From Escherichia coli phage vB_EcoS_Ace, in the sequence record MT833283.1: a stretch of 64,000 bases of DNA. The stretch is one strand, 5' to 3'. Shown in pieces: positions 1 through 45,897 of this stretch. The translations under genes were made by a program, and so were the position numbers. The notes under the pieces were generated by a model that saw nothing but the letters and a program-made list of their open reading frames with translations, had not been told where the DNA came from and did no database searches. Each line of letters begins with the position of its first letter. Positions within the stretch are counted from its first letter, which is position 1.

Positions 1-33
1 TCGCATAAAGCCCTCCTCACTTTCAATACGAAT

Positions 34-62
34 ATTATACTAAATTCGAGGGCTTTAAGCAA
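34..62 (-). promoter_or_regulatory. Early sigma70-type promoter (TTGCTT-N17-TATAAT) reading leftward out of the window
   Basis: Reverse strand reads TTGCTT, 17-nt spacer, TATAAT, followed by GAGGAG RBS and an ATG near position 4-6; coordinates +/-2 nt. Confidence 0.5.
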
Positions 63-82
63 GTGAATTTTTAAATTATTTA

Positions 83-571
83 TTACATCTCAGCAAGTTC
101 TTGCTCAGTAATTACAGTATTGCATAGAGCATCAACTTCTTCATTACCACGAATACCTGAGTGACCTTTAACCTTAACAAAGGTTGGATTGGTATCATGG
201 AAGTTAATATACTGTTGAGTTAGTTTAAATGCTTCTTGCCAGAGTTCTAGATTAAGAGGAGTTTCACCATCTCCCTTCTTCCAGCCTTTCTTCTGCCAAG
301 ACCACATCCAGCTTTCCATACCATTTTTGCAGTAAGCAGAATCAGTGTAGATAATTACTGGACGATTATCTTTCTTAGTAGACCAACGAAGAACTTCTAC
401 AATTGCAGTAAGTTCCATTTCGTTATTAGTAGTTTTAGGGCTGAAGCCAGATTTAGAGCCAATACGATCATCATTATCATTATAGACAACGAATCCCCAC
501 GCACCTAAACCAGGATTGCCTTTACATGCACCATCTGTATATATGTGGAAAACCGACATTATTTGCTCCAA
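83..571 (-). CDS. rnh: Ribonuclease H
   Basis: 162 aa; N-terminal YTDGAC..GNPG and C-terminal VKGHSG..GNE..D motifs of the RNase H fold. Confidence 0.8.
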   Translation of the reverse strand: MEQIMSVFHIYTDGACKGNPGLGAWGFVVYNDNDDRIGSKSGFSPKTTNNEMELTAIVEVLRWSTKKDNRPVIIYTDSAYCKNGMESWMWSWQKKGWKKGDGETPLNLELWQEAFKLTQQYINFHDTNPTFVKVKGHSGIRGNEEVDALCNTVITEQELAEM

Positions 572-828
572 TCAATTTCAAGCCAAAAACCTTCACGTTG
601 CTCATACTTAGCTTCCACAACATAACCTAGTTTGCTAAGTTTTTGCATGACGCTATTTCTAGCGTTTTCTGAGTATTCAGTTAATCCCTGGATGTGACAA
701 TTAAATTCTTTATCTTTAATAGCTTTGTCAATCTCTACGGCAATAAGTGATTCTAGGTCAATTACTTCCTTTTTAATGCTAGCAATAGTATTTTGTTTTG
801 CTTCTAGAGCAGATAAAAGAATAGACAT
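559..828 (-). CDS. Hypothetical protein (89 aa)
   Basis: ORF overlapping the RNase H start by 13 nt (translational coupling layout); no recognisable motif. Confidence 0.4.
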   Translation of the reverse strand: MSILLSALEAKQNTIASIKKEVIDLESLIAVEIDKAIKDKEFNCHIQGLTEYSENARNSVMQKLSKLGYVVEAKYEQREGFWLEIDWSK

Positions 829-830
829 AT

Positions 831-1409
831 TTATTCTCCAATTACTAAAACATCATGTTGAGAAGATACACCACACATATAATCTGCACAATGCGTAAAA
901 GCCAGATCAATGATTTCAAATATATCATCTACATCTAAATCTGTGGCTCGACAATACGCAATAGCTAAACCTGTACGAATACTGGAAAGTACATCTTCTC
1001 CTCCACAGCCTACACCGGCATATTCAACTTCTAGAATAGAAGCATTAGATTGGAAAATAAAGATTCTTCCTTTGTAGAGCATAATAAATTGTCCCAGATT
1101 AGGTTCAGCATATTTTTCATTTTTCTTTTCGCCAAAATCTTTCTGGTTAAACATATCACGTAATTTAGGTACTATTTCCGTGTATAAATATTTATCATCA
1201 GAAATATCTGCTAAACGTGGTGGTACAGTAAAGCTATGCTCTAGTAATTGTCCCATGTAGAAGGAACTAGTGTATCCGAAGTACAAATCATCAGAGATTT
1301 TGAATACTTTCGGATTTTTAACCAGCAGTTTCGTATAGCCATTAGAACCCATACGATCACCAGCTAAGTATACTTTATCTTTATATTTAAATGCTACTAT
1401 GGCTGTCAT
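831..1409 (-). CDS. Putative Ntn-hydrolase, HslV/proteasome beta-subunit-like peptidase
   Basis: 192 aa; Met-Thr N-terminus followed by AIVAFKYKDKVYLAGD, later GVGCGG; resembles HslV TTIV..AGDGQ and GSGG motifs; by-eye similarity only. Confidence 0.4.
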   Translation of the reverse strand: MTAIVAFKYKDKVYLAGDRMGSNGYTKLLVKNPKVFKISDDLYFGYTSSFYMGQLLEHSFTVPPRLADISDDKYLYTEIVPKLRDMFNQKDFGEKKNEKYAEPNLGQFIMLYKGRIFIFQSNASILEVEYAGVGCGGEDVLSSIRTGLAIAYCRATDLDVDDIFEIIDLAFTHCADYMCGVSSQHDVLVIGE

Positions 1410-1439
1410 TATTAAATCCTTCTGTCAAATTAGAAGTAT

Positions 1440-1468
1440 ATTATATTTAAATTTCACTCAGTAAGCAA
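1440..1468 (-). promoter_or_regulatory. Early promoter TTGCTT-N17-TATAAT embedded in a 15-bp perfect inverted repeat
   Basis: Reverse strand: TTGCTT, 17-nt spacer ACTGAGTGAAATTTAAA, TATAAT; precedes the 831-1409 gene. Confidence 0.55.
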
Positions 1469-1484
1469 ATGAAATTTAAATATA
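1442..1484. repeat. Perfect 15-bp inverted repeat TATATTTAAATTTCA / TGAAATTTAAATATA with 13-bp spacer
   Basis: Arms at about 1442-1456 and 1470-1484 are exact reverse complements; spacer contains the -35 hexamer of the promoter above. Confidence 0.6.
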
Positions 1485-1485
1485 A

Positions 1486-1503
1486 TAGCCCCGAAGGGCT
1501 ATT
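1486..1503 (-). terminator. Hairpin terminator candidate downstream of the membrane protein gene
   Basis: ATAGCCC-CGAA-GGGCTAT stem-loop followed on the minus strand by a T/A-rich run. Confidence 0.4.
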
Positions 1504-1507
1504 TGAA

Positions 1508-1861
1508 TTAGATTATAATCAAGATTATTAGGGCGTATGTCAGATAATGCAGTAACTGATCAAATCCTAAAGCTATCCAAAACTTAGCATCGCTTATAGC
1601 GTATTTACAGCGTTGTGCTTTCCAATAATCTATAATAAAGTGTAGAATTAATTCCATAATAGCTAAAGCTATAGACATTCCTGGTGATGTGAATAGGATT
1701 AGAATTGCAAATGTTAATCCAGCATGTACTAGCGAATGGGTTAATAATGGAAGTTTCCACCCTATTTTATGCGTCTTTCTTAGCATATATGGTGTTTGGA
1801 GTGGATAATCGGCCATAAAATGTTTTAGAAATAATATGACAAATAATAGTATAATTAACAT
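1508..1861 (-). CDS. Hypothetical integral membrane protein
   Basis: 117 aa, at least three strongly hydrophobic segments (LIILLFVILFL, LTFAILILF, ALIILIII). Confidence 0.5.
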   Translation of the reverse strand: MLIILLFVILFLKHFMADYPLQTPYMLRKTHKIGWKLPLLTHSLVHAGLTFAILILFTSPGMSIALAIMELILHFIIDYWKAQRCKYAISDAKFWIALGFDQLLHYLTYALIILIII

Positions 1862-1864
1862 ATG

Positions 1865-2719
1865 TTACACCGTAAATGGATATGCAATAGCAGGATGGTG
1901 TTCATAGCCACGAACAGTAAAATCATCCTTACTTACCCACGTTAATACATCATCCAAAGTTCTAATATTTGGATTGATTTCTAAAGTAGGAGGTGCAAAA
2001 GGTTCACGATCGAATTGCTTGTGCTCCATCAGAACATTATACTGATCTTCATAGATATGAAGATTAATAATCTTTTGACGAGCAATACCTGGCTTAAGAC
2101 CTGTAATCTGTGCCATAATAGCTAGAAGTGCATAGCATTGCACCATATTAAATACTTGGCCCAGCAAGAAATCATTAGACCTCTGGAAAGAGTTTAGGTA
2201 TAGTGTATCACCTAAAATAGAGAATTGATGGGTATGCATACACGGACGTAGGCATCCTTTACGAAATTCCCCAGGGTTCCAAAAAGTTAAAATTTCTCCA
2301 CGATCGTCAATCCCTCTTTTCAAATTATGATAGACTTTGGCTAACTGATCAAATACCATACCATCAGAATTAGTCCAATGACGTCCTTGAACACCATAAA
2401 CTCGTCCCATATCATCCTCGCCTTTACGGAATGGATTACCTAGCCAGGCAATATTTTCATTTGCATTAGCATTCCATGTATTAACACCAATAGCGCGGAA
2501 TTGTGCTGCTGAGTCGTACCCACGGAGATATCCGATCATTTCCATTATTGCTTGTTTAGCAAATGCTTTACGAGTAGTTACTAGCGGCAGTTCTCCTGCT
2601 CCTACGTTAAAGGTAAAGTCTGCATCAATAATGGTTAGGCAACGAACCCCTGTTCTAGGATTCGTTACCCATACACCCTCTTCAAGAATACGTTTTCCAG
2701 TTTCAATATATTGCTTCAT
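1865..2719 (-). CDS. thyA: Thymidylate synthase
   Basis: 284 aa; conserved ThyA blocks including the catalytic Cys region [10 protein letters not shown] and the C-terminal HPAI..FTV. Confidence 0.9.
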
Positions 2720-3246
2720 TTAAATATCACCAATTCTTGTAAGAATGAAAGCGTTTTATCTGCATTCTGTCCTGCCACATAGTCCATTCTAGTTGCCATT
2801 GAATTAGTTAAAGTAATATGATGATGCAGATGTACATCAGCAGATAATGGTGTGGCTGAAGTAATAGTAGAGATATACGCCATATCTAGATGATTTTTGA
2901 CATACATTTCAAGAAGCAGAGTTGCTCCCCCTAATACTACAGTTACCTCTTCCTTGAGAAAATCAGGCAGACGGTATCCAATGTTGCTTATGCGTGTAGC
3001 TGATCCTACAGAGTTAGGTAGTGGTCTATTTGCATAAATAAATAGGTCAGAATCTCCTAGTATTCTTTTTTGCAGAGTCTCAGGGAAGGCTAACCAAGTT
3101 CCTGCTCCTACAATAATATTATCAGGTGCTAGAGAATCCAAAGTAGCATAGAAAGTATTTAGTTCTTCTTTGAAAGAACCCCAAGGGAGTTTACCATTGA
3201 GGCCGAACTCCCCATTCGGCCCAGTTGCATAGATTGCTGCTATCAT
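2716..3246 (-). CDS. frd: Dihydrofolate reductase
   Basis: 176 aa; N-terminal [22 protein letters not shown] matches the DHFR N-terminal NADPH/folate-binding signature; overlaps thyA start by 4 nt. Confidence 0.85.
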
Positions 3247-4391
3247 TAGAACATGCCCTCAAATTCGTTACCCAGATCTTTCAGGGTATCAGCAGAAGTT
3301 TCAGTTACCTGACCCACACGATATGCTGCACCAATCTGGATTTCTTGTGGGGCAGGCTGTAAGGAAGTAGTATCCAGCCAGTTCATAATCCACGGAATAG
3401 GGTTCTTAGTAATTACAGGTAAGTGGCTTGGCCATTCTACACCAATGTGCATAAATGCGTTACGTCCTACAAAGTAAAGGTATTCTTCAAGCAGTTCTGC
3501 GTTCAAACCAATCAGACTACGGCCTTTAAAGATAAAGTGACCCCATTCAATCTCAGTTTTCAGAGTTTTTAGGAGTTGTGTTGGTGCTTTAGCTAATGCT
3601 TCATCTACCAGATCTTTATCAAACTGCTGGAACATAATCTGGATGATAGCTTTAGACATTTGAGTATGTAGAGCTTCATCTTTAGCGATTAATTGCAGGT
3701 TCTTAGCAATACCTTGCAGAATATCGTTCTCTGCTAGAGCAAAGGTACATGCAAAGGATGCGTAGAACTGCATTGCTTCTAGACCGTAGATTGCAAAGTA
3801 AGCGTCTAACAGTTTAGCCTGAGTTTCACGTTTAACTTCAGGGAACTCAGTTTCTGGATAAGTATTATCACCACGATGATCACGTACTGCAAGGAAATAC
3901 TGGCCTAACAGATACAATTCATCAAACAGTTCAACAGAATCTGCGATACGTGCAAATGCTTCTTGGTTTTTAGTTACAGAATCAATAAATTCTGCTGGAT
4001 CAGTCAGAACGTTACGAATAATGTTACTATATGCACGGCTATGCAGATCTTCGAAGTAGCTCCACTGCTTGAGCATACCCTCCAATTCAGGACGGCTTAC
4101 AAGCGGCATAATAGCTGCTTCAGGAGCACGGCTAATGAAAGAATCTGTTTGGGTCTGCCATGCTAAGTTCAGGAGAGTAATTTCCTGAATATCACGCGGA
4201 AGGTTTGGCCATTGTTTCTTATCAGCTTCCAGACTGATTTCAGTTTCAGTCCAAAATTGAGAACGTTGCAGAAGTGCTAGACGCTCAAGTTCAGGATGTG
4301 CTACACGAACGTAATCTGCGATACCAAGAGAATCGCCCAGGAAAAGGTCAGCGTTAGTATGATCCCAATTCAGGTTTAGTAAAGTAGTCAT
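3246..4391 (-). CDS. nrdB: Ribonucleotide reductase class Ia small subunit
   Basis: 381 aa; ferritin-like di-iron/tyrosyl-radical protein signature (FYASFACTFALAE, EALH), located next to nrdA. Confidence 0.9.
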   Translation of the reverse strand: MTTLLNLNWDHTNADLFLGDSLGIADYVRVAHPELERLALLQRSQFWTETEISLEADKKQWPNLPRDIQEITLLNLAWQTQTDSFISRAPEAAIMPLVSRPELEGMLKQWSYFEDLHSRAYSNIIRNVLTDPAEFIDSVTKNQEAFARIADSVELFDELYLLGQYFLAVRDHRGDNTYPETEFPEVKRETQAKLLDAYFAIYGLEAMQFYASFACTFALAENDILQGIAKNLQLIAKDEALHTQMSKAIIQIMFQQFDKDLVDEALAKAPTQLLKTLKTEIEWGHFIFKGRSLIGLNAELLEEYLYFVGRNAFMHIGVEWPSHLPVITKNPIPWIMNWLDTTSLQPAPQEIQIGAAYRVGQVTETSADTLKDLGNEFEGMF

Positions 4392-4422
4392 TGATTTTCC
4401 TCTTTCTCACTATTTCAGGAAT

Positions 4423-4451
4423 ATTATAGCAAATCTGGTAGCGATTAGCAA
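4423..4451 (-). promoter_or_regulatory. Early promoter TTGCTA-N17-TATAAT upstream of nrdB
   Basis: Reverse strand TTGCTA, 17-nt spacer, TATAAT, followed by an AGAGGAAAA-type RBS and the nrdB ATG. Confidence 0.5.
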
Positions 4452-4458
4452 GTAAAAT

Positions 4459-4490
4459 TTCAAAGAAAAAGGAGACCCGAAGATCTCCTT
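4459..4490 (-). terminator. Rho-independent terminator downstream of nrdA
   Basis: AAGGAGA-CCCGAAG-ATCTCCTT hairpin with flanking T-runs on both strands. Confidence 0.55.
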
Positions 4491-4497
4491 GTTTTTA

Positions 4498-6828
4498 TTA
4501 TAGGTTACAACCACCGGATGCACAACCTGCTGCTTCTTCACCAGCTCCACCACCATTTTCAGTGTTGAAGTTAGCGTAGTACCAAGTTTTCCAACCGTAC
4601 TTAACAGCAGTCATGAAATCACGAACTACTACTGGACCAGGAATGATTTCATTCTCAAACTTGGTGTAGTCATAGTACATATTCGTACTGATAGACTGAC
4701 TGAAAAATTTCTGCATGGTTGCTACCCATTTGATCCACTCGATACGATCTACATCATAAGCCAGTTTATAGCTCATTAATATATCCCAATCGGTTGCACC
4801 TGGAGCAATTGCAATTACTTTATTCACTGCACTACCCTTGATAGATACAATCTTACGAGGTGGTTCAATAGAGTTAGTAACACCTAGCAGTACAGAGGAA
4901 CTTTCACCCGGCATCTGAGCAGTCAGAACAGAGTTACGCATACCGTATTTCAGGATATCTGCACGCAGAGATTCCCAATCCATTTCTAGACCTACGGTTA
5001 CCAGTTCATCAACAGTTTTCTTGTACGTGTCGATTACCAGAGTTCCTTTGGATGGCTTAGTACGATTAAACCAGTCACATGCACCTTGTTCTTTAGCCAG
5101 ACGTACAGATGCTTTGTGCAGGAAGTAAGACAGTTTTTCAGCTTCACGGTGAATCCAGTTACGAGCTTCAACACCTTCGTAAGCCAAACCTTCTGCTGCC
5201 ATTGCACCTGCTGCGTTCATCAGGCCAATACCAACGTTTCGACGTTTCTTAGCCGTGTATTCCATAGTTGGGAATGGGTAATCCTGAATCTCGATGATTG
5301 TATCAACTAATTTCAGAAGGATGTAGCAAGTTTTCTCCCATTCAGCCAGAGATTCCATGCGGCCTAGTACAACACCACCTAAGTTACACAGAGATACTTC
5401 ACCAATATCTTCTGGACGCATATCGTCTAACTGATCTTGGGTTTTATACAGTTCCGTAATGTGATGGAATGGACGGGTTGGCTGAGTAATTTCAACACAA
5501 AGGTTGGTCATACGAATCGGGTCAAGGAAGTTACCATGACGGTTAGATTCACCAATGTGATGAGCATACATACGCCCTGTTTCCATACGGATACGTAACC
5601 AAGTATCTAGGATTTCTTTTGCAGAGATTCTAGGAGCTGCTGGAATTGTTTTTCCTTCGTGGTCGGTCTTTGTAAGAGATGCCACACGTTTCTCCGCTGC
5701 CACGTAGATTTCTTCAAACTTAGCCTCATCTTCACCATAAAACGCTTCATGAACTTCTGGTGCGTAGAAGTAGGACATTAGCGTAATATCTTCGTTTTTC
5801 AGGTAACGTTTTAACAGAAGGTTGTTAAAGCTCAGAGAATAATCCATCTTATCGATTTTATTCTCGTCTGTAGCACGTTGCTGCTTAACCTGCATCAACT
5901 GAATGATTTCAGGATCGAAGTATGGATAAGACACAGTAGCAGAACCGCCACGGGTTTGCTGAGTGTTAGCTTTTACTGAACGGTCAATGTGTCTATAATA
6001 TGGCAGTTTTCCGGAATGCGGGAATGCCCCATTTCGCACCGGATCAGCAATTGATCGGCTTTCAAGATGATACCCGATTCCCGCTCTGGCTGCGACCATT
6101 TTGAAGACGATATGCTCGGCTGTGTCGATTGAATCGAGGGTATCAGTACTATCAACAAGACAACAAGAAGCAAAACCGCGGTCGCTGCTCCTAAGACCCA
6201 CGAGAGGTGGAGTAGGAACGTTGATTTTGTGGAGCGACATTGCATTGTAGAGGTCGATTGCATCTAGAATTGTCCAGTTAGGTTGAGATAACATCGCCAT
6301 TGCCATACCCATGTAAGCAAACTGCGGGGTTTCATAAATTTCACCAGTTGCAATATTACGACGGGAATACTTGTCGAAGAACTGTTTCAGCCCACCACTG
6401 GTGAATAAACGATCGCGATCATGATCAATAACTTGATTCAGAGCATCAAACTGATCATCGCTAATCCATGCACTCATGTCTTCCCAAGCTCCAACACTAA
6501 CCATATGATCGTGGAAGAAACGCAGAGAAGGAGGCTCGAAGGAGTCATATAGACGTTTACGCATCTGCGCAAGACGTAATTCCTTAGCTGGCACATCATA
6601 TGCTGGGTTATCTTTGATAAGACCTTCAGCGGCTTTAATTAACGCATCCATTAGGGTGTCGGAGTCTACAACACCTTTAGGTAGAGTTTTTTGAGCAGCC
6701 ATAGTGATGGATGACCAGCTTACATCAACTGTTTTGCAGCCATACACTGCCCAACCATTGAGTTTTTCAGGAGCAAAGTCTTCTACAGTACCGTCACGTT
6801 TGATTACTTTTTCTATGCGATGGCTCAT
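4498..6828 (-). CDS. nrdA: Ribonucleotide reductase class Ia large subunit
   Basis: ATP-cone start MSHRIEKVIKRDGT, catalytic-site CNLG block, C-terminal Cys pair; track ORF extends to 6933 but the internal ATG at 6828 has an AGGAAA-type RBS and starts the ATP-cone. Confidence 0.9.
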   Translation of the reverse strand: MSHRIEKVIKRDGTVEDFAPEKLNGWAVYGCKTVDVSWSSITMAAQKTLPKGVVDSDTLMDALIKAAEGLIKDNPAYDVPAKELRLAQMRKRLYDSFEPPSLRFFHDHMVSVGAWEDMSAWISDDQFDALNQVIDHDRDRLFTSGGLKQFFDKYSRRNIATGEIYETPQFAYMGMAMAMLSQPNWTILDAIDLYNAMSLHKINVPTPPLVGLRSSDRGFASCCLVDSTDTLDSIDTAEHIVFKMVAARAGIGYHLESRSIADPVRNGAFPHSGKLPYYRHIDRSVKANTQQTRGGSATVSYPYFDPEIIQLMQVKQQRATDENKIDKMDYSLSFNNLLLKRYLKNEDITLMSYFYAPEVHEAFYGEDEAKFEEIYVAAEKRVASLTKTDHEGKTIPAAPRISAKEILDTWLRIRMETGRMYAHHIGESNRHGNFLDPIRMTNLCVEITQPTRPFHHITELYKTQDQLDDMRPEDIGEVSLCNLGGVVLGRMESLAEWEKTCYILLKLVDTIIEIQDYPFPTMEYTAKKRRNVGIGLMNAAGAMAAEGLAYEGVEARNWIHREAEKLSYFLHKASVRLAKEQGACDWFNRTKPSKGTLVIDTYKKTVDELVTVGLEMDWESLRADILKYGMRNSVLTAQMPGESSSVLLGVTNSIEPPRKIVSIKGSAVNKVIAIAPGATDWDILMSYKLAYDVDRIEWIKWVATMQKFFSQSISTNMYYDYTKFENEIIPGPVVVRDFMTAVKYGWKTWYYANFNTENGGGAGEEAAGCASGGCNL

Positions 6829-8019: not shown

Positions 8020-8048
8020 ATTATACCAATATATACGGGAGAAAGCAA
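8020..8048 (-). promoter_or_regulatory. Early promoter TTGCTT-N17-TATAAT driving phoH-nrdA
   Basis: Reverse strand TTGCTT, 17-nt spacer, TATAAT in the divergent intergenic region. Confidence 0.55.
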
Positions 8049-8240
8049 CTACAATTTTAAATAAGCCTATGATATTGCATTTAAATAAAAAATTTGCTTG
8101 CTTTTATTGGGAAATGTATGGTACTAGATAATCATTTTATATCGCGTACACGGGTGCGTGATTATACTATTTTTAGTAGAGGTTGGCAAATAAAATTTTT
8201 TGACTCAGATCAATTTACAGAATGTTATAGTAAAATATTG

Positions 8241-8269
8241 TTGACATCCGCCTTCGAATGAGTTATAAT
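8241..8269 (+). promoter_or_regulatory. Consensus sigma70 promoter TTGACA-N17-TATAAT upstream of nrdD
   Basis: Exact consensus -35 and -10 hexamers with 17-nt spacing, followed by GAAGGAGAG RBS and ATG at 8299. Confidence 0.7.
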
Positions 8270-8298
8270 AGTAGTCTTAGTTAGAGAAGGAGAGTATA

Positions 8299-16437: not shown

Positions 16438-16654
16438 AAAGTGGGAAACAAGGAAGTTTCCCGTAAAAGAACGTAAAACTTCTGTTTACGATACTGCGGA
16501 GAAACTATGTAGGGTTGTACCACCTCGTCTCGCTGGCATCCCTAACGTCTCCATATGGTTACTTAAACAACGGAAGACTCGTGTGTCTCTTCGTATTGGC
16601 TTTGAGTTAGATAAAGTCTATGCTGAACTTGCTTCTTTGCTCAAAGAATCGTAA
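16421..16654 (+). CDS. Hypothetical small protein (77 aa)
   Basis: ATG at 16421 overlapping the end of the preceding gene; basic, KK-rich. Confidence 0.35.
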   Translation: MTAKNKKWETRKFPVKERKTSVYDTAEKLCRVVPPRLAGIPNVSIWLLKQRKTRVSLRIGFELDKVYAELASLLKES

Positions 16655-16662
16655 AAATTTAT

Positions 16663-16691
16663 TTGCTTTTAGGAAAATTTTTCTGTATAAT
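16663..16691 (+). promoter_or_regulatory. Phage T5 PN25-type early promoter
   Basis: Recalled PN25 sequence (pQE-vector T5 promoter) TTTATTTGCTTT.AGGAAAATTTTTCTGTATAATAGATTCATAAATTTGAGAGAGGAG matches except one position in the spacer. Confidence 0.85.
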
Positions 16692-16722
16692 AGATTCATA
16701 AATTTGAGAGAGGAGTTTAAAT

Positions 16723-34705: not shown

Positions 34706-34931
34706 TTATTCAGATCTTAATATGGTAGGTAATTTTGAGCAGTCAAATACTTATCATGTAGCAGTTGCTGAACCTAATCTGAATAACGTGGTTCTTAAAG
34801 TAGACCGTGAAGGTAATGTAATCCATTGGGATGAAGACGCTTTTGTCGAATTGTGTAGTAAGTCTGAAGATCCTACACTCAGAGCTATGTTAGCAGTATT
34901 TAATTTAGGTGTTATTGCCGGAAGTAGATAA
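34668..34931 (+). CDS. Hypothetical protein (87 aa)
   Basis: Last plus-strand ORF before the strand switch. Confidence 0.35.
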   Translation: MEKAALEAQEVNNYSDLNMVGNFEQSNTYHVAVAEPNLNNVVLKVDREGNVIHWDEDAFVELCSKSEDPTLRAMLAVFNLGVIAGSR

Positions 34932-34936
34932 TAATA

Positions 34937-34970
34937 AACCCCAGTGGACAATCCACTGGGGTTTTCTTTT
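34937..34970. terminator. Bidirectional terminator at the convergence of early and late gene blocks
   Basis: CCCCAGTGG-ACAAT-CCACTGGGG hairpin with an A-run upstream and T-run downstream. Confidence 0.65.
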
Positions 34971-36782: not shown

Positions 36783-39700
36783 TTATACTGGAGTTAAGGC
36801 AGCTACAACTTGTTTGAGTTGTTCTAACTCTTGTTCTAAAGTATTCATTTTATTACCCATGTACACCATAGCACAAGCCATATCCGTTAGAATAACGTTA
36901 CTATCAAGAGCAAGTGTGTCATCAGCTCTATCGGTTTCAATTTGACGATCCACATATTCGTTACCATCCGTGTCAACTCCAATTACGTCTTCAAAAACTG
37001 GAGAGCCAGGTACGATTTTTACATATTGAAGATCTATTTTTGCAAGATCCTGGGCTATAAGACCATAACGTTGAGTATCGCCCCACTTATATTTAAACAT
37101 AGTAGGCAACCACTGCATAACACGGTCATAACTTTCCTTTCCATCTGTGTAAATAATTTCTTTCTTTAAGTCACGGTCTGAAGTTGGGTTTTTTGCAAAA
37201 TCATAACCAACTCCCCACATATCCCCGGGCGCGTTTGCCCATGTTCCTAAACTACCATCTACGTTAAATTCAAATCCTCTATGTTTATCGTTATCACCTA
37301 GCAGCTTGAGTATTGTCCTGGACCATCCAGCGGCGCCCGGGGACAACATACCAATTGCGAAACGTATGTTATAACCGTTTGGAGTTGAAGTGCCTCCCGC
37401 GACTACCGGACTGAATGATGCGTTATTGTTAGTTGTACTCACTGAATTGAATGGAATTCCATTACCACTATCGTACTGCTCAATACCCCAACCATGAATG
37501 TTACCCACAGTGCCAGCATTAAATGCACGCGCTTTATGGTAGCCTGTTGGATAGAAATCAAAGTCCGCCACATCAATACTAGGACTATAAACTCTTAAAC
37601 GATGACATTTAATCTTGTCTGAACCAGATCTAACAGCACCGGATATTGACATATCATTATACCAGTTATACCTAGTAAAGTTAGCCCAATCATCCAAAGG
37701 AACACTAGCCCCGGCATAAAGCTCAAGATTGTTTCGCTCACCTCCTTCCATTGTAAAAGCGTAGTTAGCACCAATTTTTATTTTCTGAGCACTAAATTGA
37801 CCATTTTCGTCAAACTGGTAGAAGGCTGTTTTATCGGTGGTTGAGTTTGTAGTCCTTATTGTTGTTTTCGCTACACCAGATTGAAGTTCGTTGTAAATAG
37901 AGGAATAAGAAATTAAGTTTCTAGAAGCATCGTGATTCCTCATATATAACAGACCAGAATTGAATCCATTATATAAGCTAGCAGCAACTTCGGCAAAGCT
38001 AGGTGTATTAGTTTCTCCTAATTCTATGTTAGCCCTTGCACCTGCTGCATTCGTCGCCCCTGTACCTCCATTATTAATAGCTAGAATTCCCTGGGTATCA
38101 TTATTTAAATCAGGCTTATTTGCTGAACCGTATAGAATATTAGTATGGATAGTAGGATTTTCACTATCTAATTGATTATCATTTATAGTCCCGACAAAAA
38201 CAATACCACTAGAGTATTGGGGGCAAATAAATGAGTGAGTATCTGCAGTTTTAGAGTAAAATCCTGCAGAATACGCCGGTAGCCCACCTATTCCTATGTC
38301 GTTTCTATAGTAGCCAGAACCAAAAGCTCTCATAGCTTTAAAAAGAGATACTAAATCAGGCTCGTTTAAAGTGAGTCCTGCACCACCTAAGCCAAAAGCA
38401 CCACGAAGTAAAACCTCACCATTAATGCCATCCCAAACATTCTTAGTAACAACGTTACCTAGAGAAATATTACCACTCTCGTCTGGGCGAATAGTTCCGT
38501 TAACCATTGCTACATAAGGAAGTTTAATAGCTCCGGTATCATCAGCAGGACCAATTCCATTCACAGTAGTGATATAAGGAATCTGTTCCTTAATAGCACC
38601 GCCGTCTTCTTCTCCCTTAGTAGGTGCACGAAAAGCCTGCCCTTGCATCATATCTGGTAGGCGGAATGTGGTAGAACCGTCACCAGTGGAGAAGTAGAGA
38701 GTTGCACCGGCTTGCCATTCAGCTTCTGAAACAGAAGGAATTAGACCAGCTTCGATGGCTTCCCAAGTATCAGGATAGTCAACACGAAGTACTTCACGGC
38801 CATCAGCAGGTAGAACACCAGGGTAACCAACACCTGAATCCTTGTTATAAGGGAACCAAGTAACTTCACCCAACCATAGAGAAGGGTTACCACCCGGAAG
38901 TGTAATCTGTACGTTACCTGCATCATCTGCATGAACGTTGTTGATTGATACGAGTTTTTGCTCGGTTTCTACTAACTCTAGGACAGGAGCTTCAGCAGTA
39001 CCAGCAACTTTATACCAACCGTACTTTGAATCAGTTTGATTCCAGACTAGAACCTTTTCGTCTAGAACACGGTTTGCAACATCAGCATCAGCTTCTGCTT
39101 TCGTCTTATAAACTTTGATAAAACCAGAAATATCTACTTTATCAAGTTTACCATCAACAACCTGAGTAGCACGATCTGCCTCAGCTTTAGCACGATCTGC
39201 CTCAGTAGTAGCATCGATAGCTTTATCGCCAGCTTCAGTAGCAGAACCAGCAGCATTAGTTTCAGAAATCTTAGCGTTTAGTTCTGATTGCTTAGCAGCA
39301 GCAGCATGCTCACCAGCAGTTGTTGCAGCAGCATCGGCTCCTTCTTTAGCAGTTTCTGCACCAGTTTGTGCAGTTTCAGCGGCTACTTGAGCTTGTTGAG
39401 CAGCAGTTTTAGCTTGTTCGGCTAGTTCTCTACTTCTTTCAGCATTTTGAGCAGCTAACTGAGCCGCATCTTTGTGTGTGCCGGCTTCTGTAGCAGATGC
39501 AGCGGATTCTTCAGCGCTAGCCTTAGATAATCCAGCTTGTCTCTCAGATTCCGTAGCAGAAGTAGCTGCTTGAGTAGCAGAAGCTTCAGAAGAATCAGCG
39601 TAAATAGCAGCTCTATTTTCTGAGTCTCTAGCGTTAGTTTCAGATAATTTTGCTGCAATTTCAGAATCTTTTGCTGCCGCAGCAGAAGCAGCAGAGGCTT

Positions 39701-45791: not shown

Positions 45792-45817
45792 AGTTAATTT
45801 CTCCTCTTAATAACAAT

Positions 45818-45846
45818 ATTATAATAGGATTGGAAAATTTTATCAA
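45818..45846 (-). promoter_or_regulatory. Consensus-like sigma70 promoter (TTGATA-N17-TATAAT) inside the tail gene block
   Basis: Reverse strand TTGATA, 17-nt spacer, TATAAT, then AAGAGGAG RBS and the Dit ATG. Confidence 0.45.
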
Positions 45847-45868
45847 GAAATTTTTATTTTTCCATAAA

Positions 45869-45897
45869 GAAAAGGAGGACTTTATGTCCTCCTCCAG
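45869..45897 (-). terminator. Hairpin (terminator/attenuator candidate) downstream of the tape-measure gene
   Basis: GGAGGAC-ATAAA-GTCCTCC stem-loop followed by a T-rich run on the minus strand. Confidence 0.45.

What the first reader, a model, noticed from the sequence alone, without database searches (positions are those of the whole stretch)
1440..1503. Promoter embedded in a perfect 15-bp palindrome next to a terminator hairpin
The arms TATATTTAAATTTCA and TGAAATTTAAATATA are exact reverse complements separated by 13 bp, and the spacer contains the -35 hexamer of the minus-strand promoter for the HslV-like/RNase H operon. A perfect palindrome of this length centred on a promoter is a classical operator layout or cruciform-prone site, suggesting regulated transcription of this sub-operon. 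A separate GC hairpin (1486-1503) terminates the upstream gene.
Basis: seen in the sequence. Interest (0 to 1): 0.45.

Follow-up and report, generated by a model that had tools for sequence, protein, structure and literature searches.

The report
Self-complementary T5 early promoter cassette
In this T5-like phage a strong early promoter sits inside a perfect 18-bp inverted repeat just after a terminator hairpin, and related phages keep the two arms complementary through matched changes, so it looks like a hairpin-forming regulatory cassette at a gene-module junction, not a repressor binding site.

Summary
The arms are 18 bp, not 15 (1439-1456 / 1470-1487, 13-nt spacer). It is the longest perfect inverted repeat in the 64-kb window; simulated sequences reach 10-14 bp.

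The window is a T5-like Epseptimavirus. On the minus strand the spacer holds TTGCTT (-35). The gene-proximal arm holds the rest of the 17-bp spacer plus TATAAT (-10). The other arm is the upstream AT-rich region and also the U-rich tail of a GC hairpin (1484-1503) that ends the thy/DUF3307 unit. T5 annotates a promoter at the same place.

Across 24 distinct variants, pairing holds in 97.5% of cells, and 7 of 20 pairs changed on both sides. The variants include T5 itself (20-22 bp arms) and a second, paralogous cassette elsewhere in the genome. Most single mismatches are G·U on the sense strand.

The cassette joins at least 4 upstream ends to 5 downstream genes.

An operator is therefore unlikely: pairing is conserved, not sequence. 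My best reading is a terminator-promoter cassette whose palindrome folds as an AU hairpin on read-through RNA, with the arms probably kept identical by hairpin-templated correction. Function is inferred, not shown. A function-less, self-correcting quasipalindrome is the main rival.

The parts
1508..1861 (-). DUF3307 membrane-protein gene, the last gene of the upstream unit (nrdA-nrdB-frd-thy-DUF3307)
   Evidence: ORF. Pfam PF11750, E=3e-12. Absent in many relatives, where thy abuts the cassette directly.
1484..1503 (-). T1: intrinsic-terminator-type hairpin. 8-bp stem AAUAGCCC/GGGCUAUU with a UUCG loop; the core is 5 bp with 4 G-C pairs.
   Evidence: Sequence. Predicted in the RNA fold. Conserved in all relatives examined. 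Its tail UAUUAUAUUU is only moderately U-rich.
1470..1487 (-). Promoter-distal arm of the palindrome (sense: TATTATATTTAAATTTCA, about -54 to -37). It doubles as the T1 tail and the AT-rich upstream (UP-like) region of the promoter.
   Evidence: Mirrored changes with the other arm.
1457..1469 (-). Loop/spacer of the palindrome (sense: TTTGCTTACTGAG), containing the -35 hexamer TTGCTT (1468->1463)
   Evidence: TTGCTT is invariant in all 24 variants, while the 5-6 nt after it vary freely.
1439..1456 (-). Promoter-proximal arm (sense: TGAAATTTAAATATAATA, about -23 to -6), made of the 3' part of the 17-bp spacer plus the -10 hexamer TATAAT (1445->1440)
1410..1438 (-). Discriminator ATACT, predicted start site near 1431-1433, and Shine-Dalgarno AAGGA (1421->1417) ahead of the ATG at 1409
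   Evidence: Sequence. The start site is predicted from spacing only. T5 early promoters carry ATATT here (PMC7472727). Homology with relatives that carry other downstream genes ends about 3 nt after the palindrome.
83..1409 (-). Downstream unit: HslV/proteasome-like gene (831-1409), 89-aa ORF (559-828) and RNase H (ORF as listed 83-571, TTG; Pfam was run on 83-559 from the internal ATG)
   Evidence: ORFs. Pfam PF00227 (E=1e-9) and PF00075 (E=1e-30).

Best explanation
This is a conserved regulatory cassette of about 85 bp in T5-like phages (Markadamsvirinae). A GC-rich hairpin (T1) ends the thy/DUF3307 transcript. It is followed at once by a T5-type early sigma-70 promoter (TTGCTT-17-TATAAT) for the HslV-like/ORF/rnhA genes.

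The promoter's upstream half is an exact inverted copy of its spacer-plus-minus-10 half, and the -35 hexamer sits in the loop. What is preserved is self-pairing of one strand, not a protein recognition sequence.

The most likely working form is RNA. Transcripts that read through T1 fold the promoter sequence into an 18-22 bp A·U hairpin directly abutting T1. Transcripts started at the promoter itself begin downstream of the palindrome and lack it. I infer that this hairpin insulates the downstream unit from upstream transcription, by RNase III-type cleavage of a perfect two-turn duplex and/or as a back-up pause or terminator ahead of the T-rich start region.

Hairpin-templated (quasipalindrome) correction during replication probably helps keep the arms identical. 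The cassette also serves as a shared patch of homology at which gene modules are exchanged.

Shown here: the anatomy, the non-chance status, conservation with compensatory change, a second paralogous copy, the sense-strand bias, and the module-junction location.
Inferred: promoter and terminator activity, the RNA-level role, RNase III cleavage, and template switching.
For: Anatomy and significance:
- 18-bp perfect repeat. It is the longest in 64 kb; simulations reach 10-14 bp.
- The promoter matches the T5 early type. It resembles the PN25-like promoter at window 16663. T5 annotates a promoter at the homologous thy-rnh site. An ATATT discriminator is typical of T5 early promoters (PMC7472727).

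Conservation of pairing:
- 24 distinct variants: 97.5% of cells paired, 7 of 20 pairs changed on both sides, 0 of 500 shuffles reach this, and slid controls give 35-53%.
- One pair runs G-C (L040), G·U (T5), A-U (L101). Mirrored 1-nt insertions give 19-bp arms (L355 is perfect). T5-type arms reach 20-22 bp perfect.

Second copy:
- A paralogous cassette in the rest of the genome (Sepoy 37590-37670) has the same layout but arms TATTATACAGAAATTTTC/GAAAATTTCTGTATAATA, also 18 bp perfect.
- These two are the outliers among 40 T5-type promoters, with fold energies of -19.5 and -18.3 kcal/mol.

Strand bias:
- About 7 independent G·U events against 3 A·C events on the sense strand.
- The sense RNA hairpin is more stable than the antisense one in 23 of 24 variants, by 4.4 kcal/mol on average. 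It never falls above -13.2 kcal/mol, while the antisense one weakens to -6.5.

Structure:
- RNA folds place T1 and the palindrome hairpin adjacent to each other; in the T5, L040 and cassette-2 folds no unpaired base separates them. Fold z-scores are -5.8 for the window and -6.9 to -9.1 for those three.

Module junction:
- At least 4 upstream ends and 5 downstream genes occur in 12 or more combinations.
- The cassette is 97.5% identical where the flanks no longer align.
- One record is a recombinant between two neighbouring promoters that has lost an ORF.

Template switching is active in these genomes: the loop of the cassette-2 terminator is inverted between close relatives.
Against: - There are no transcript 5'/3' end data for any T5-like phage in the searched literature, so promoter, terminator and hairpin activity are all predicted.
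- The stem is almost pure A·U.
- The tail after the stem is U-rich in some contexts (UAUUUUAU) but not in others (UACUCAAU), so a terminator role is not consistently supported.
- The G·U versus A·C count (about 7:3) is not statistically decisive, and part of the sense/antisense energy difference is inherited by descent.
- Arms this perfect are more than RNA stability should require. That fits replication-templated correction without any selected function.
- Only 2 (arguably 3) of 40 promoters carry a long palindrome, so it is not needed for promoter function.
- One relative (EC148) has lost the loop with the -35 yet kept the palindrome.
Confidence: 0.45

Rival explanations
1. A function-less, self-perpetuating quasipalindrome. 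Short A/T-symmetric promoter blocks (AAATTT upstream and in the spacer) seeded an inverted repeat. Intra-strand template switching during replication then extended and homogenised it. The result fills all the space left free between the terminator stem, the -35 core and the start region. It persists because the upstream half only needs to be AT-rich.
For: - Arms are mostly perfect rather than merely stable.
- Indels and multi-nucleotide differences are mirrored (TTT/AAA versus CAG/CTG).
- The palindrome stops exactly at the GGGC of T1, at -6, and at the core of the -35 (22 bp in L040).
- Loop inversion of a neighbouring perfect hairpin between close relatives is a hallmark of template switching (PMC8604942 abstract).
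- The other 38 promoters also show excess complementarity between their own upstream region and their own spacer (5 with 8 nt or more, permutation p=0.003), giving a graded series as expected from a mutational process.
Against: - Template switching is strand-symmetric, yet mismatches and fold energies favour the sense strand.
- The palindrome is retained across the sampled Tequintavirus and Epseptimavirus records and in a paralogous cassette.
- The mirrored -10 (TATTATA) replaces what would otherwise be a better U-tract for T1, which is a cost.
Confidence: 0.3
2. A DNA cruciform or hairpin switch. Under negative supercoiling the repeat extrudes, which sequesters the -10 and the upstream region and shuts the promoter off. 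Promoter output would then be coupled to DNA topology.
For: The DNA hairpin is predicted at -12 kcal/mol, z=-7.5. The arms are AT-rich. Pairing is conserved.
Against: - A central spacer of 7-14 nt strongly disfavours extrusion (general knowledge of cruciform kinetics).
- Virion T5-type DNA is linear and nicked (PMC10644984), so sustained supercoiling is doubtful.
- A cruciform needs both strands to pair, but the antisense hairpin weakens to -6.5 kcal/mol in some natural variants.
Confidence: 0.1
3. An operator. A dimeric phage or host DNA-binding protein recognises the two arms and represses or activates this promoter.
For: Dyad symmetry centred on a promoter is the classical operator layout. 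T5 early transcription is shut off late by unknown factors (PMC7472727).
Against: - Arms differ at mirrored positions between lineages and between the two cassettes of one genome, yet each stays perfectly self-complementary. A shared protein would not require that.
- Arm length (18-22 bp) and spacer length (7-14 nt) vary.
- G·T intermediates are common.
- No other half-site copies occur in the genome.
- The parts conserved between the cassettes are simply promoter elements (TATAATA, AAATTT).
Confidence: 0.07
4. A divergent or bidirectional promoter. The mirrored TATAAT on the plus strand (1481-1486) drives antisense transcription.
For: A perfect TATAAT exists on the plus strand. Promoter symmetry is known to give divergent transcription in bacteria (own knowledge).
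Against: The best plus-strand -35 candidates at 16-18 bp spacing (TCAGTA, CTCAGT, CAGTAA) match TTGACA at 2 of 6 positions or fewer, and there is no TG extension (sequence). Such a transcript would run straight into T1 and has no plus-strand gene to serve.
Confidence: 0.03

Closest known systems
PeSLs (promoter-early stem-loops) of T4-like phages (Arbiol et al. 2010, PMC2839356; Comeau et al. 2014, PMC4122927)
   Same: A composite intergenic cassette made of a terminator stem-loop, an AT-rich stretch and a strong sigma-70 early promoter. It is repeated in the genome. It sits at junctions where accessory genes are inserted, deleted or swapped, and it acts as a patch of homology for modular shuffling.
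   Different: A different phage family (Demerecviridae, siphovirus). Only two long-palindrome copies per genome. The PeSL stem-loop is a separate GC hairpin, whereas here a second, much longer A·U inverted repeat encloses the promoter itself. Mini-circle formation was not tested. The PeSL papers do not mention T5.
Promoter-coupled terminators (Fletcher, ... Grainger, bioRxiv 10.64898/2026.08.19.745784)
   Same: Termination and initiation signals of tandem units share the same DNA. Hairpin-coding DNA overlaps the -35, and T-rich terminator sequence contributes to promoter function.
   Different: In that class one hairpin lies over the -35, the T-tract lies in the spacer, and the RNA 3' end is about 10 bp upstream of the start site. 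Here T1 lies wholly upstream, with a predicted 3' end about 45 nt before the start site. The promoter-spanning hairpin ends at -6, so any termination would fall at or after +1.
Classical T5 promoters (PN25, PN26, D/E20; Gentz & Bujard 1985, cited in PMC7472727)
   Same: TTGCTT -35, 17-bp spacer, TATAAT, an A/T block near -45, and an ATATT-type discriminator. PN25- and D/E20-like promoters are present in this same window.
   Different: Those promoters have at most about 8 nt of complementarity between the upstream region and the spacer. The 18-22 bp dyad is specific to two cassettes.
RNase III processing hairpins between phage T7 genes, some next to promoters (own knowledge; Dunn & Studier 1983)
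   Same: An intergenic hairpin of about two helical turns, present only on read-through RNA, that would separate upstream from downstream mRNA.
   Different: T7 sites have internal loops and experimentally mapped cleavages. Here cleavage is only inferred, and the stem is a perfect A·U duplex overlapping a host-RNAP promoter.
Quasipalindrome template-switch mutagenesis (e.g. PMC7202029, PMC8604942, PMC5941160)
   Same: Arms are homogenised, indels are mirrored, and spacer inversion is seen in a neighbouring hairpin.
   Different: That is a mutational mechanism, not a functional class. It does not explain the sense-strand bias.

Membership tests
T5-type early sigma-70 promoter | -35 TTGCTT-like hexamer, 17 (±1) bp spacer, -10 TATAAT | tested here: met
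   TTGCTT 1468->1463, 17 bp, TATAAT 1445->1440. TTGCTT and TATAAT are invariant in 24 variants.
T5-type early sigma-70 promoter | A/T-rich block upstream of the -35 (about -45) and an ATATT discriminator | tested here: met
   AAATTTCA lies just before the -35, and the 25 nt upstream are 72% AT. The discriminator is ATACT in the window (4 of 5) and ATATT in most relatives. The criterion comes from PMC7472727.
T5-type early sigma-70 promoter | Mapped start site and early kinetics | not testable with these tools
   The only support is the T5 record's annotated 'promoter' at the homologous site. No transcript data were found.
Intrinsic (Rho-independent) terminator (T1) | GC-rich stem-loop shortly after a stop codon | tested here: met
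   8-bp stem (4 G-C pairs) with a UUCG loop, 5 nt after the DUF3307 stop codon; in relatives it lies directly after thy.
Intrinsic (Rho-independent) terminator (T1) | Run of U immediately 3' of the stem | tested here: inconclusive
   The tail is UAUUAUAUUU after the core stem (7 of 10 U), or AUAUUUAA after the extended stem (4 of 8 U). The consensus scan did not call it.
PeSL-like mobile regulatory cassette | Composite stem-loop + AT-rich region + early promoter, repeated in the genome | tested here: met
   Two paralogous cassettes with the same layout, plus a weaker third at Sepoy 36031.
PeSL-like mobile regulatory cassette | Located at boundaries of variable gene modules, with recombinants between cassettes | tested here: met
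   12 or more upstream/downstream combinations. The cassette is conserved where the flanks differ. One recombinant has lost an ORF.
PeSL-like mobile regulatory cassette | Membership in T4-like phages, the G(n)-loop-C(n) stem motif, and mini-circle formation | tested here: not met
   The host phage is a T5-like siphovirus. The stem motif is different. Mini-circles are not testable here. So this works like a PeSL but is not a member of that family.
Promoter-coupled terminator (Fletcher et al. 2026) | RNA 3' end within about 35 bp (mode 10 bp) upstream of the start site; hairpin DNA over the -35; T-tract in the spacer | tested here: not met
   The predicted T1 end is about 45 nt upstream of the predicted start site. 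The hairpin that does cover the -35 extends through the -10.
Palindromic operator of a dimeric regulator | Half-site sequence conserved (not merely complementary) among sites bound by the same protein; a cognate protein | tested here: not met
   The two cassettes in one genome differ at 5 of 18 arm positions, each difference mirrored in the other arm. No other half-sites exist. No candidate protein was identified.
RNase III substrate | About 20 bp or more of uninterrupted dsRNA on a transcript that really exists | tested here: inconclusive
   Predicted stems are 18-23 bp including G·U pairs, at -13 to -24 kcal/mol. Read-through RNA and cleavage are not testable here, and antideterminant positions were not analysed.
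Rfam families | Match to any curated RNA family | tested here: not met
   No hit at the palindrome with E up to 1.

The most novel reading that the evidence does not exclude
T5-family phages have a class of 'self-complementary promoters'. The upstream half of a strong sigma-70 promoter is selected to pair with its own spacer and -10 in read-through RNA. Each promoter would then carry its own built-in insulator: a hairpin that is cut by RNase III, or that stops or pauses incoming polymerases. This makes terminator-promoter cassettes portable units for exchanging gene modules. The weaker but significant own-promoter complementarity in the other 38 promoters would be the same principle in milder form.
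Probability: 0.25. Interest if true: 0.65.

Novelty: new variant of a known kind. Interest (0 to 1): 0.47.

Why it matters
T5 promoters are textbook strong promoters and are widely used in expression vectors. I found no description of a conserved, covarying hairpin that encloses one of them.

If the pairing acts on read-through RNA, it would be a compact way to insulate tandem transcription units. It would also extend two ideas to a new phage family and a new geometry: portable terminator-promoter cassettes (PeSLs) and promoter-terminator coupling.

If instead it is a self-correcting quasipalindrome, it is a clean natural example of template switching shaping promoter architecture. It would also be a caution against reading promoter palindromes as operators.

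Either way the cassette marks a recombination joint, which is useful for understanding mosaicism in T5-like therapeutic phages.

Tried and rejected
- **Chance:** rejected. In 2.69 Mb of fetched phage and metagenome DNA, no other palindrome of 12 bp or more ends at TATAAT(A).
- **Repeated operator half-site:** none found in the window or in the rest of the genome. The one 2-mismatch hit (Sepoy 19757) is just another promoter's spacer/-10.
- **Known RNA family:** none.
- **Divergent plus-strand promoter:** no usable -35 (sequence).
- **More distant Demerecviridae via thymidylate synthase loci (L011-L019):** the cassette is absent after thy, so they gave no information.
- **Terminator-hairpin scans:** That spent the single metagenome scan poorly.
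- **Literature on T5 promoter palindromes or T5 transcript-end maps:** nothing relevant. Gentz & Bujard 1985 is not held.
- **MAFFT alignment of the variants:** it placed the two arm gaps asymmetrically. I re-aligned with N padding so that pairs share columns.
- **The promoter-spanning hairpin as a canonical terminator:** rejected as a firm claim, because the tail after it is U-rich only in some gene contexts.
- **T5 nick site or injection-stop signal:** considered, but no supporting evidence, and the location does not fit (own knowledge).

Full report
**1. What the window is.**
Bases 1-6000 are 98.8% identical to Salmonella phage Sepoy, and more than 460 T5-like phage records match (Demerecviridae, Markadamsvirinae, Epseptimavirus/Tequintavirus).

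All genes near the finding are on the minus strand. In order they are:
- nrdA, nrdB, frd and thy (1865-2719);
- a DUF3307 membrane protein (1508-1861);
- the intergenic region in question;
- an HslV/proteasome-like gene (831-1409), an 89-aa ORF, and RNase H (listed ORF 83-571; Pfam was run on 83-559).

**2. The observation.**
The reported 15-mers are present and complementary. The perfect inverted repeat is 18 bp: 1439-1456 / 1470-1487 with a 13-nt spacer.
- It is the longest perfect inverted repeat with a loop up to 60 nt in the 64-kb window; the runner-up is 13 bp.
- Thirty composition-matched simulated sequences gave maxima of 10-14 bp.
- The arm does not recur in the window, even allowing 2 mismatches.

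**3. Anatomy on the sense (minus) strand.**
The sequence reads:
AAUAGCCC-UUCG-GGGCUAUU (hairpin T1, 1503->1484), then TATTATATTTAAATTTCA (distal arm, 1487->1470, sharing 4 nt with T1), then T-TTGCTT-ACTGAG (loop; -35 at 1468->1463), then TGAAATTTAAA-TATAAT-A (proximal arm, 1456->1439; -10 at 1445->1440), then TACTTCTAATTTGACAGAAGGATTTAATA-ATG.

TTGCTT-17-TATAAT with an A/T block before the -35 is the classical T5 promoter type.
- The same window carries PN25-like and D/E20-like promoters.
- The T5 GenBank record annotates a promoter at the homologous thy-rnh position.
- T5 early promoters are reported to share an ATATT discriminator (PMC7472727). The window has ATACT; most relatives have ATATT.

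The -10 lies inside one arm. The other arm is at once the U-rich tail of T1 and the upstream AT-rich region of the promoter.

**4. Conservation.**
I collected the cassette from T5 itself, from 12 further GenBank relatives sampled across the identity range, and from IMG/VR contigs. This gave 22 distinct orthologous versions plus 2 versions of a paralogous cassette.

Three arm types occur:
- 18-bp arms, as in the window;
- 19-bp arms, with a mirrored insertion of A in one arm and T in the other (perfect in DaisyDussoix);
- T5-type arms, TATTATATTTGAAATTGTAC / GTACAATTTCAAATATAATA (20 bp, and 22 bp perfect in L040 when the TT of the -35 is included).

One pair runs G-C (L040), G·U (T5), A-U (L101).

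I built an alignment laid out so that pairs share columns. On it, 97.5% of cells pair, 7 of 20 pairs changed on both sides, no shuffle out of 500 reaches the observed pairing or covariation, and sliding the partner by 1-3 columns drops pairing to 35-53%.

The 5-6 loop positions after the -35 vary freely, so the region is not simply frozen.

**5. A second copy, and a gradient.**
The window covers Sepoy coordinates from about 48.8 kb onward. In the remainder of that genome (Sepoy 1-48800) there is exactly one other 18-bp perfect inverted repeat. It has the same layout:

ATAGCCCTC-GCTTA-GAGGGCTAT | TATTATACAGAAATTTTC | GC-TTGCTT-AATATA | GAAAATTTCTGTATAATA.

It lies downstream of a PnuC-like gene and ahead of a small ORF and the tRNA region. 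Its arms differ from the window's at 5 of 18 positions, and every difference is mirrored.

Among 40 T5-type promoters in this composite genome, these two fold at -19.5 and -18.3 kcal/mol. A third (Sepoy 36031) folds at -14.5. The rest lie between -12.3 and -1.0 kcal/mol.

With the top two excluded, promoters are still more complementary to their own spacer than to other promoters' spacers: 5 have 8 nt or more, permutation p=0.003. The window's palindrome is thus the extreme of a family tendency.

**6. Why not an operator.**
- A shared dimeric protein would constrain sequence. Here sequence differs between two cassettes in one genome while complementarity is perfect in each.
- Arm length (18-22 bp) and spacer length (7-14 nt) vary.
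- Wobble-type intermediates are common.
- No other half-sites exist.
- The segments common to both cassettes are just promoter elements.

I rate the operator reading at about 0.07.

**7. RNA, DNA or neither?**
Single mismatches fall into three groups: about 7 independent G·U events on the sense strand, about 3 A·C events, and 2 transversions.

As RNA, the sense hairpin is more stable than the antisense one in 23 of 24 variants, by 4.4 kcal/mol on average. It never falls above -13.2 kcal/mol, while the antisense hairpin weakens to -6.5.

This favours pairing of the sense strand, that is, read-through RNA. It argues against a cruciform, which needs both strands. It also argues against a purely strand-symmetric mutational process. 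The events are few and partly shared by descent, however, so the evidence is suggestive only.

RNA folds place the palindrome hairpin directly against T1. In the T5, L040 and cassette-2 folds no unpaired base separates them (z = -5.8 for the window, -6.9 to -9.1 for those three). Transcripts started at the promoter begin downstream of the palindrome, so only read-through RNA carries it.

A perfect A·U duplex of about two turns is the kind of substrate E. coli RNase III cuts (established knowledge; not tested here). The T-rich start region after the stem could add pausing or termination, but that tail is U-rich only in some gene contexts.

Against a selected function: the arms are more perfect than stability requires, and the palindrome fills exactly the space between constrained elements. 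In addition, the loop of the cassette-2 terminator is inverted between close relatives (GCTTA versus TAAGC), a hallmark of template switching. A self-correcting quasipalindrome without function is therefore a serious rival (0.3). The two are not exclusive.

**8. Module junction.**
The 79-bp core (window 1434-1512) stays about 97% identical in records whose flanks no longer align.

Three different thy 3' ends or the DUF3307 gene occur upstream. Five different genes occur downstream: HslV-like, MGLF(K/R)KK, MISAKEA, MSKEIEL, or rnh directly. These are found in at least 12 combinations. Homology ends about 3 nt after the palindrome.

One record is a recombinant between cassette 2 and the next promoter, with the intervening ORF lost.

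This is how PeSLs of T4-like phages behave (PMC2839356). This phage is not T4-like and the stem motif differs, so the cassette works like a PeSL without being a member of that family.

The recently described promoter-coupled terminators (bioRxiv 10.64898/2026.08.19.745784) share the principle of dual-use DNA but not the geometry.

**9. Verdict.**
- The promoter and terminator readings are supported.
- The operator reading is not supported.
- Best explanation (0.45): a portable terminator-promoter cassette whose promoter is self-complementary. The pairing acts mainly on read-through RNA as an insulator hairpin and is kept exact with the help of templated correction.
- Sub-claims: cassette identity about 0.9; 'pairing, not protein code' about 0.8; RNA-level function about 0.4.
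- Novelty: a new variant of a known kind.
- Interest: 0.47.

Noticed in passing
L360 (Escherichia phage EC148, NC_106721 47104-47465): The 15 nt holding the -35 (ATTTGCTTATTTAGT) are missing. This leaves an uninterrupted 34-bp perfect palindrome, TATTATATTTAAATTTC|GAAATTTAAATATAATA, in front of the same downstream gene. It is either a natural loop deletion that weakens the promoter or an assembly artefact at a palindrome.
   Followed up: partly
L020 37640-37665 (Sepoy) versus L363, L364 and L366 (about 150-175): The loop of the cassette-2 terminator hairpin is inverted between close relatives: GCTTA in Sepoy and INF11, TAAGC in 118970_sal2, ZBSTP12 and EscoHU1. The stem is identical. This is a signature of template switching or inversion across a perfect inverted repeat.
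   Followed up: partly
L365 (OR850830, S.Inf 5-2 clone) 150-240: A hybrid promoter whose upstream half comes from cassette 2 and whose downstream half comes from the next promoter (Sepoy 37264). The 98-aa ORF between them is missing. The hybrid still pairs at 16 of 18 positions plus one G·U.
   Followed up: partly
L020 35990-36060 (Sepoy, minus strand): A third, weaker 'palindromic promoter'. AGCAGAAATTTTAA upstream pairs with TTAAGATTTCTGCT just before TATAAT (-14.5 kcal/mol), and a small hairpin GGAGTTTAACTCC precedes it.
   Followed up: partly
window and L020, 38 other T5-type promoters: Each promoter's own upstream region is more complementary to its own spacer/-10 than to those of other promoters: 5 have 8 nt or more, against roughly 2 expected from the cross-promoter rates (permutation p=0.003). 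Dyad symmetry around the -35 may be a general trait of T5-family promoters.
   Followed up: partly
window 16618-16700 (+) and 45800-45890 (-): These are near-exact copies of the classical T5 promoters PN25 (…AAAAATTTATTTGCTTTTAGGAAAATTTTTCTGTATAATAGATTCATAAAT) and D/E20. The identification is from memory of the published sequences.
   Followed up: no
window 34936-34964: A 13-bp perfect GC-rich hairpin (AAACCCCAGTGGA-CAA-TCCACTGGGGTTT) flanked by an A-tract and a T-tract. It lies between convergent ORFs ending at 34931 (+) and 34969 (-), so it is a likely bidirectional terminator.
   Followed up: partly
window 8040-8275: Back-to-back strong promoter matches on opposite strands (minus at 8048 and 8189, plus at 8241). 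This marks a divergent transcription switch region.
   Followed up: no
GenBank records: Records named Campylobacter phage A148, Listeria phage LM 4-14-1 and Klebsiella phage 150049 match this Salmonella/E. coli T5-like sequence. A148 and 150049 are 98.6% identical over 6 kb; LM 4-14-1 is a 3.5-kb record at 83% over 118 nt. Their host labels look doubtful.
   Followed up: no
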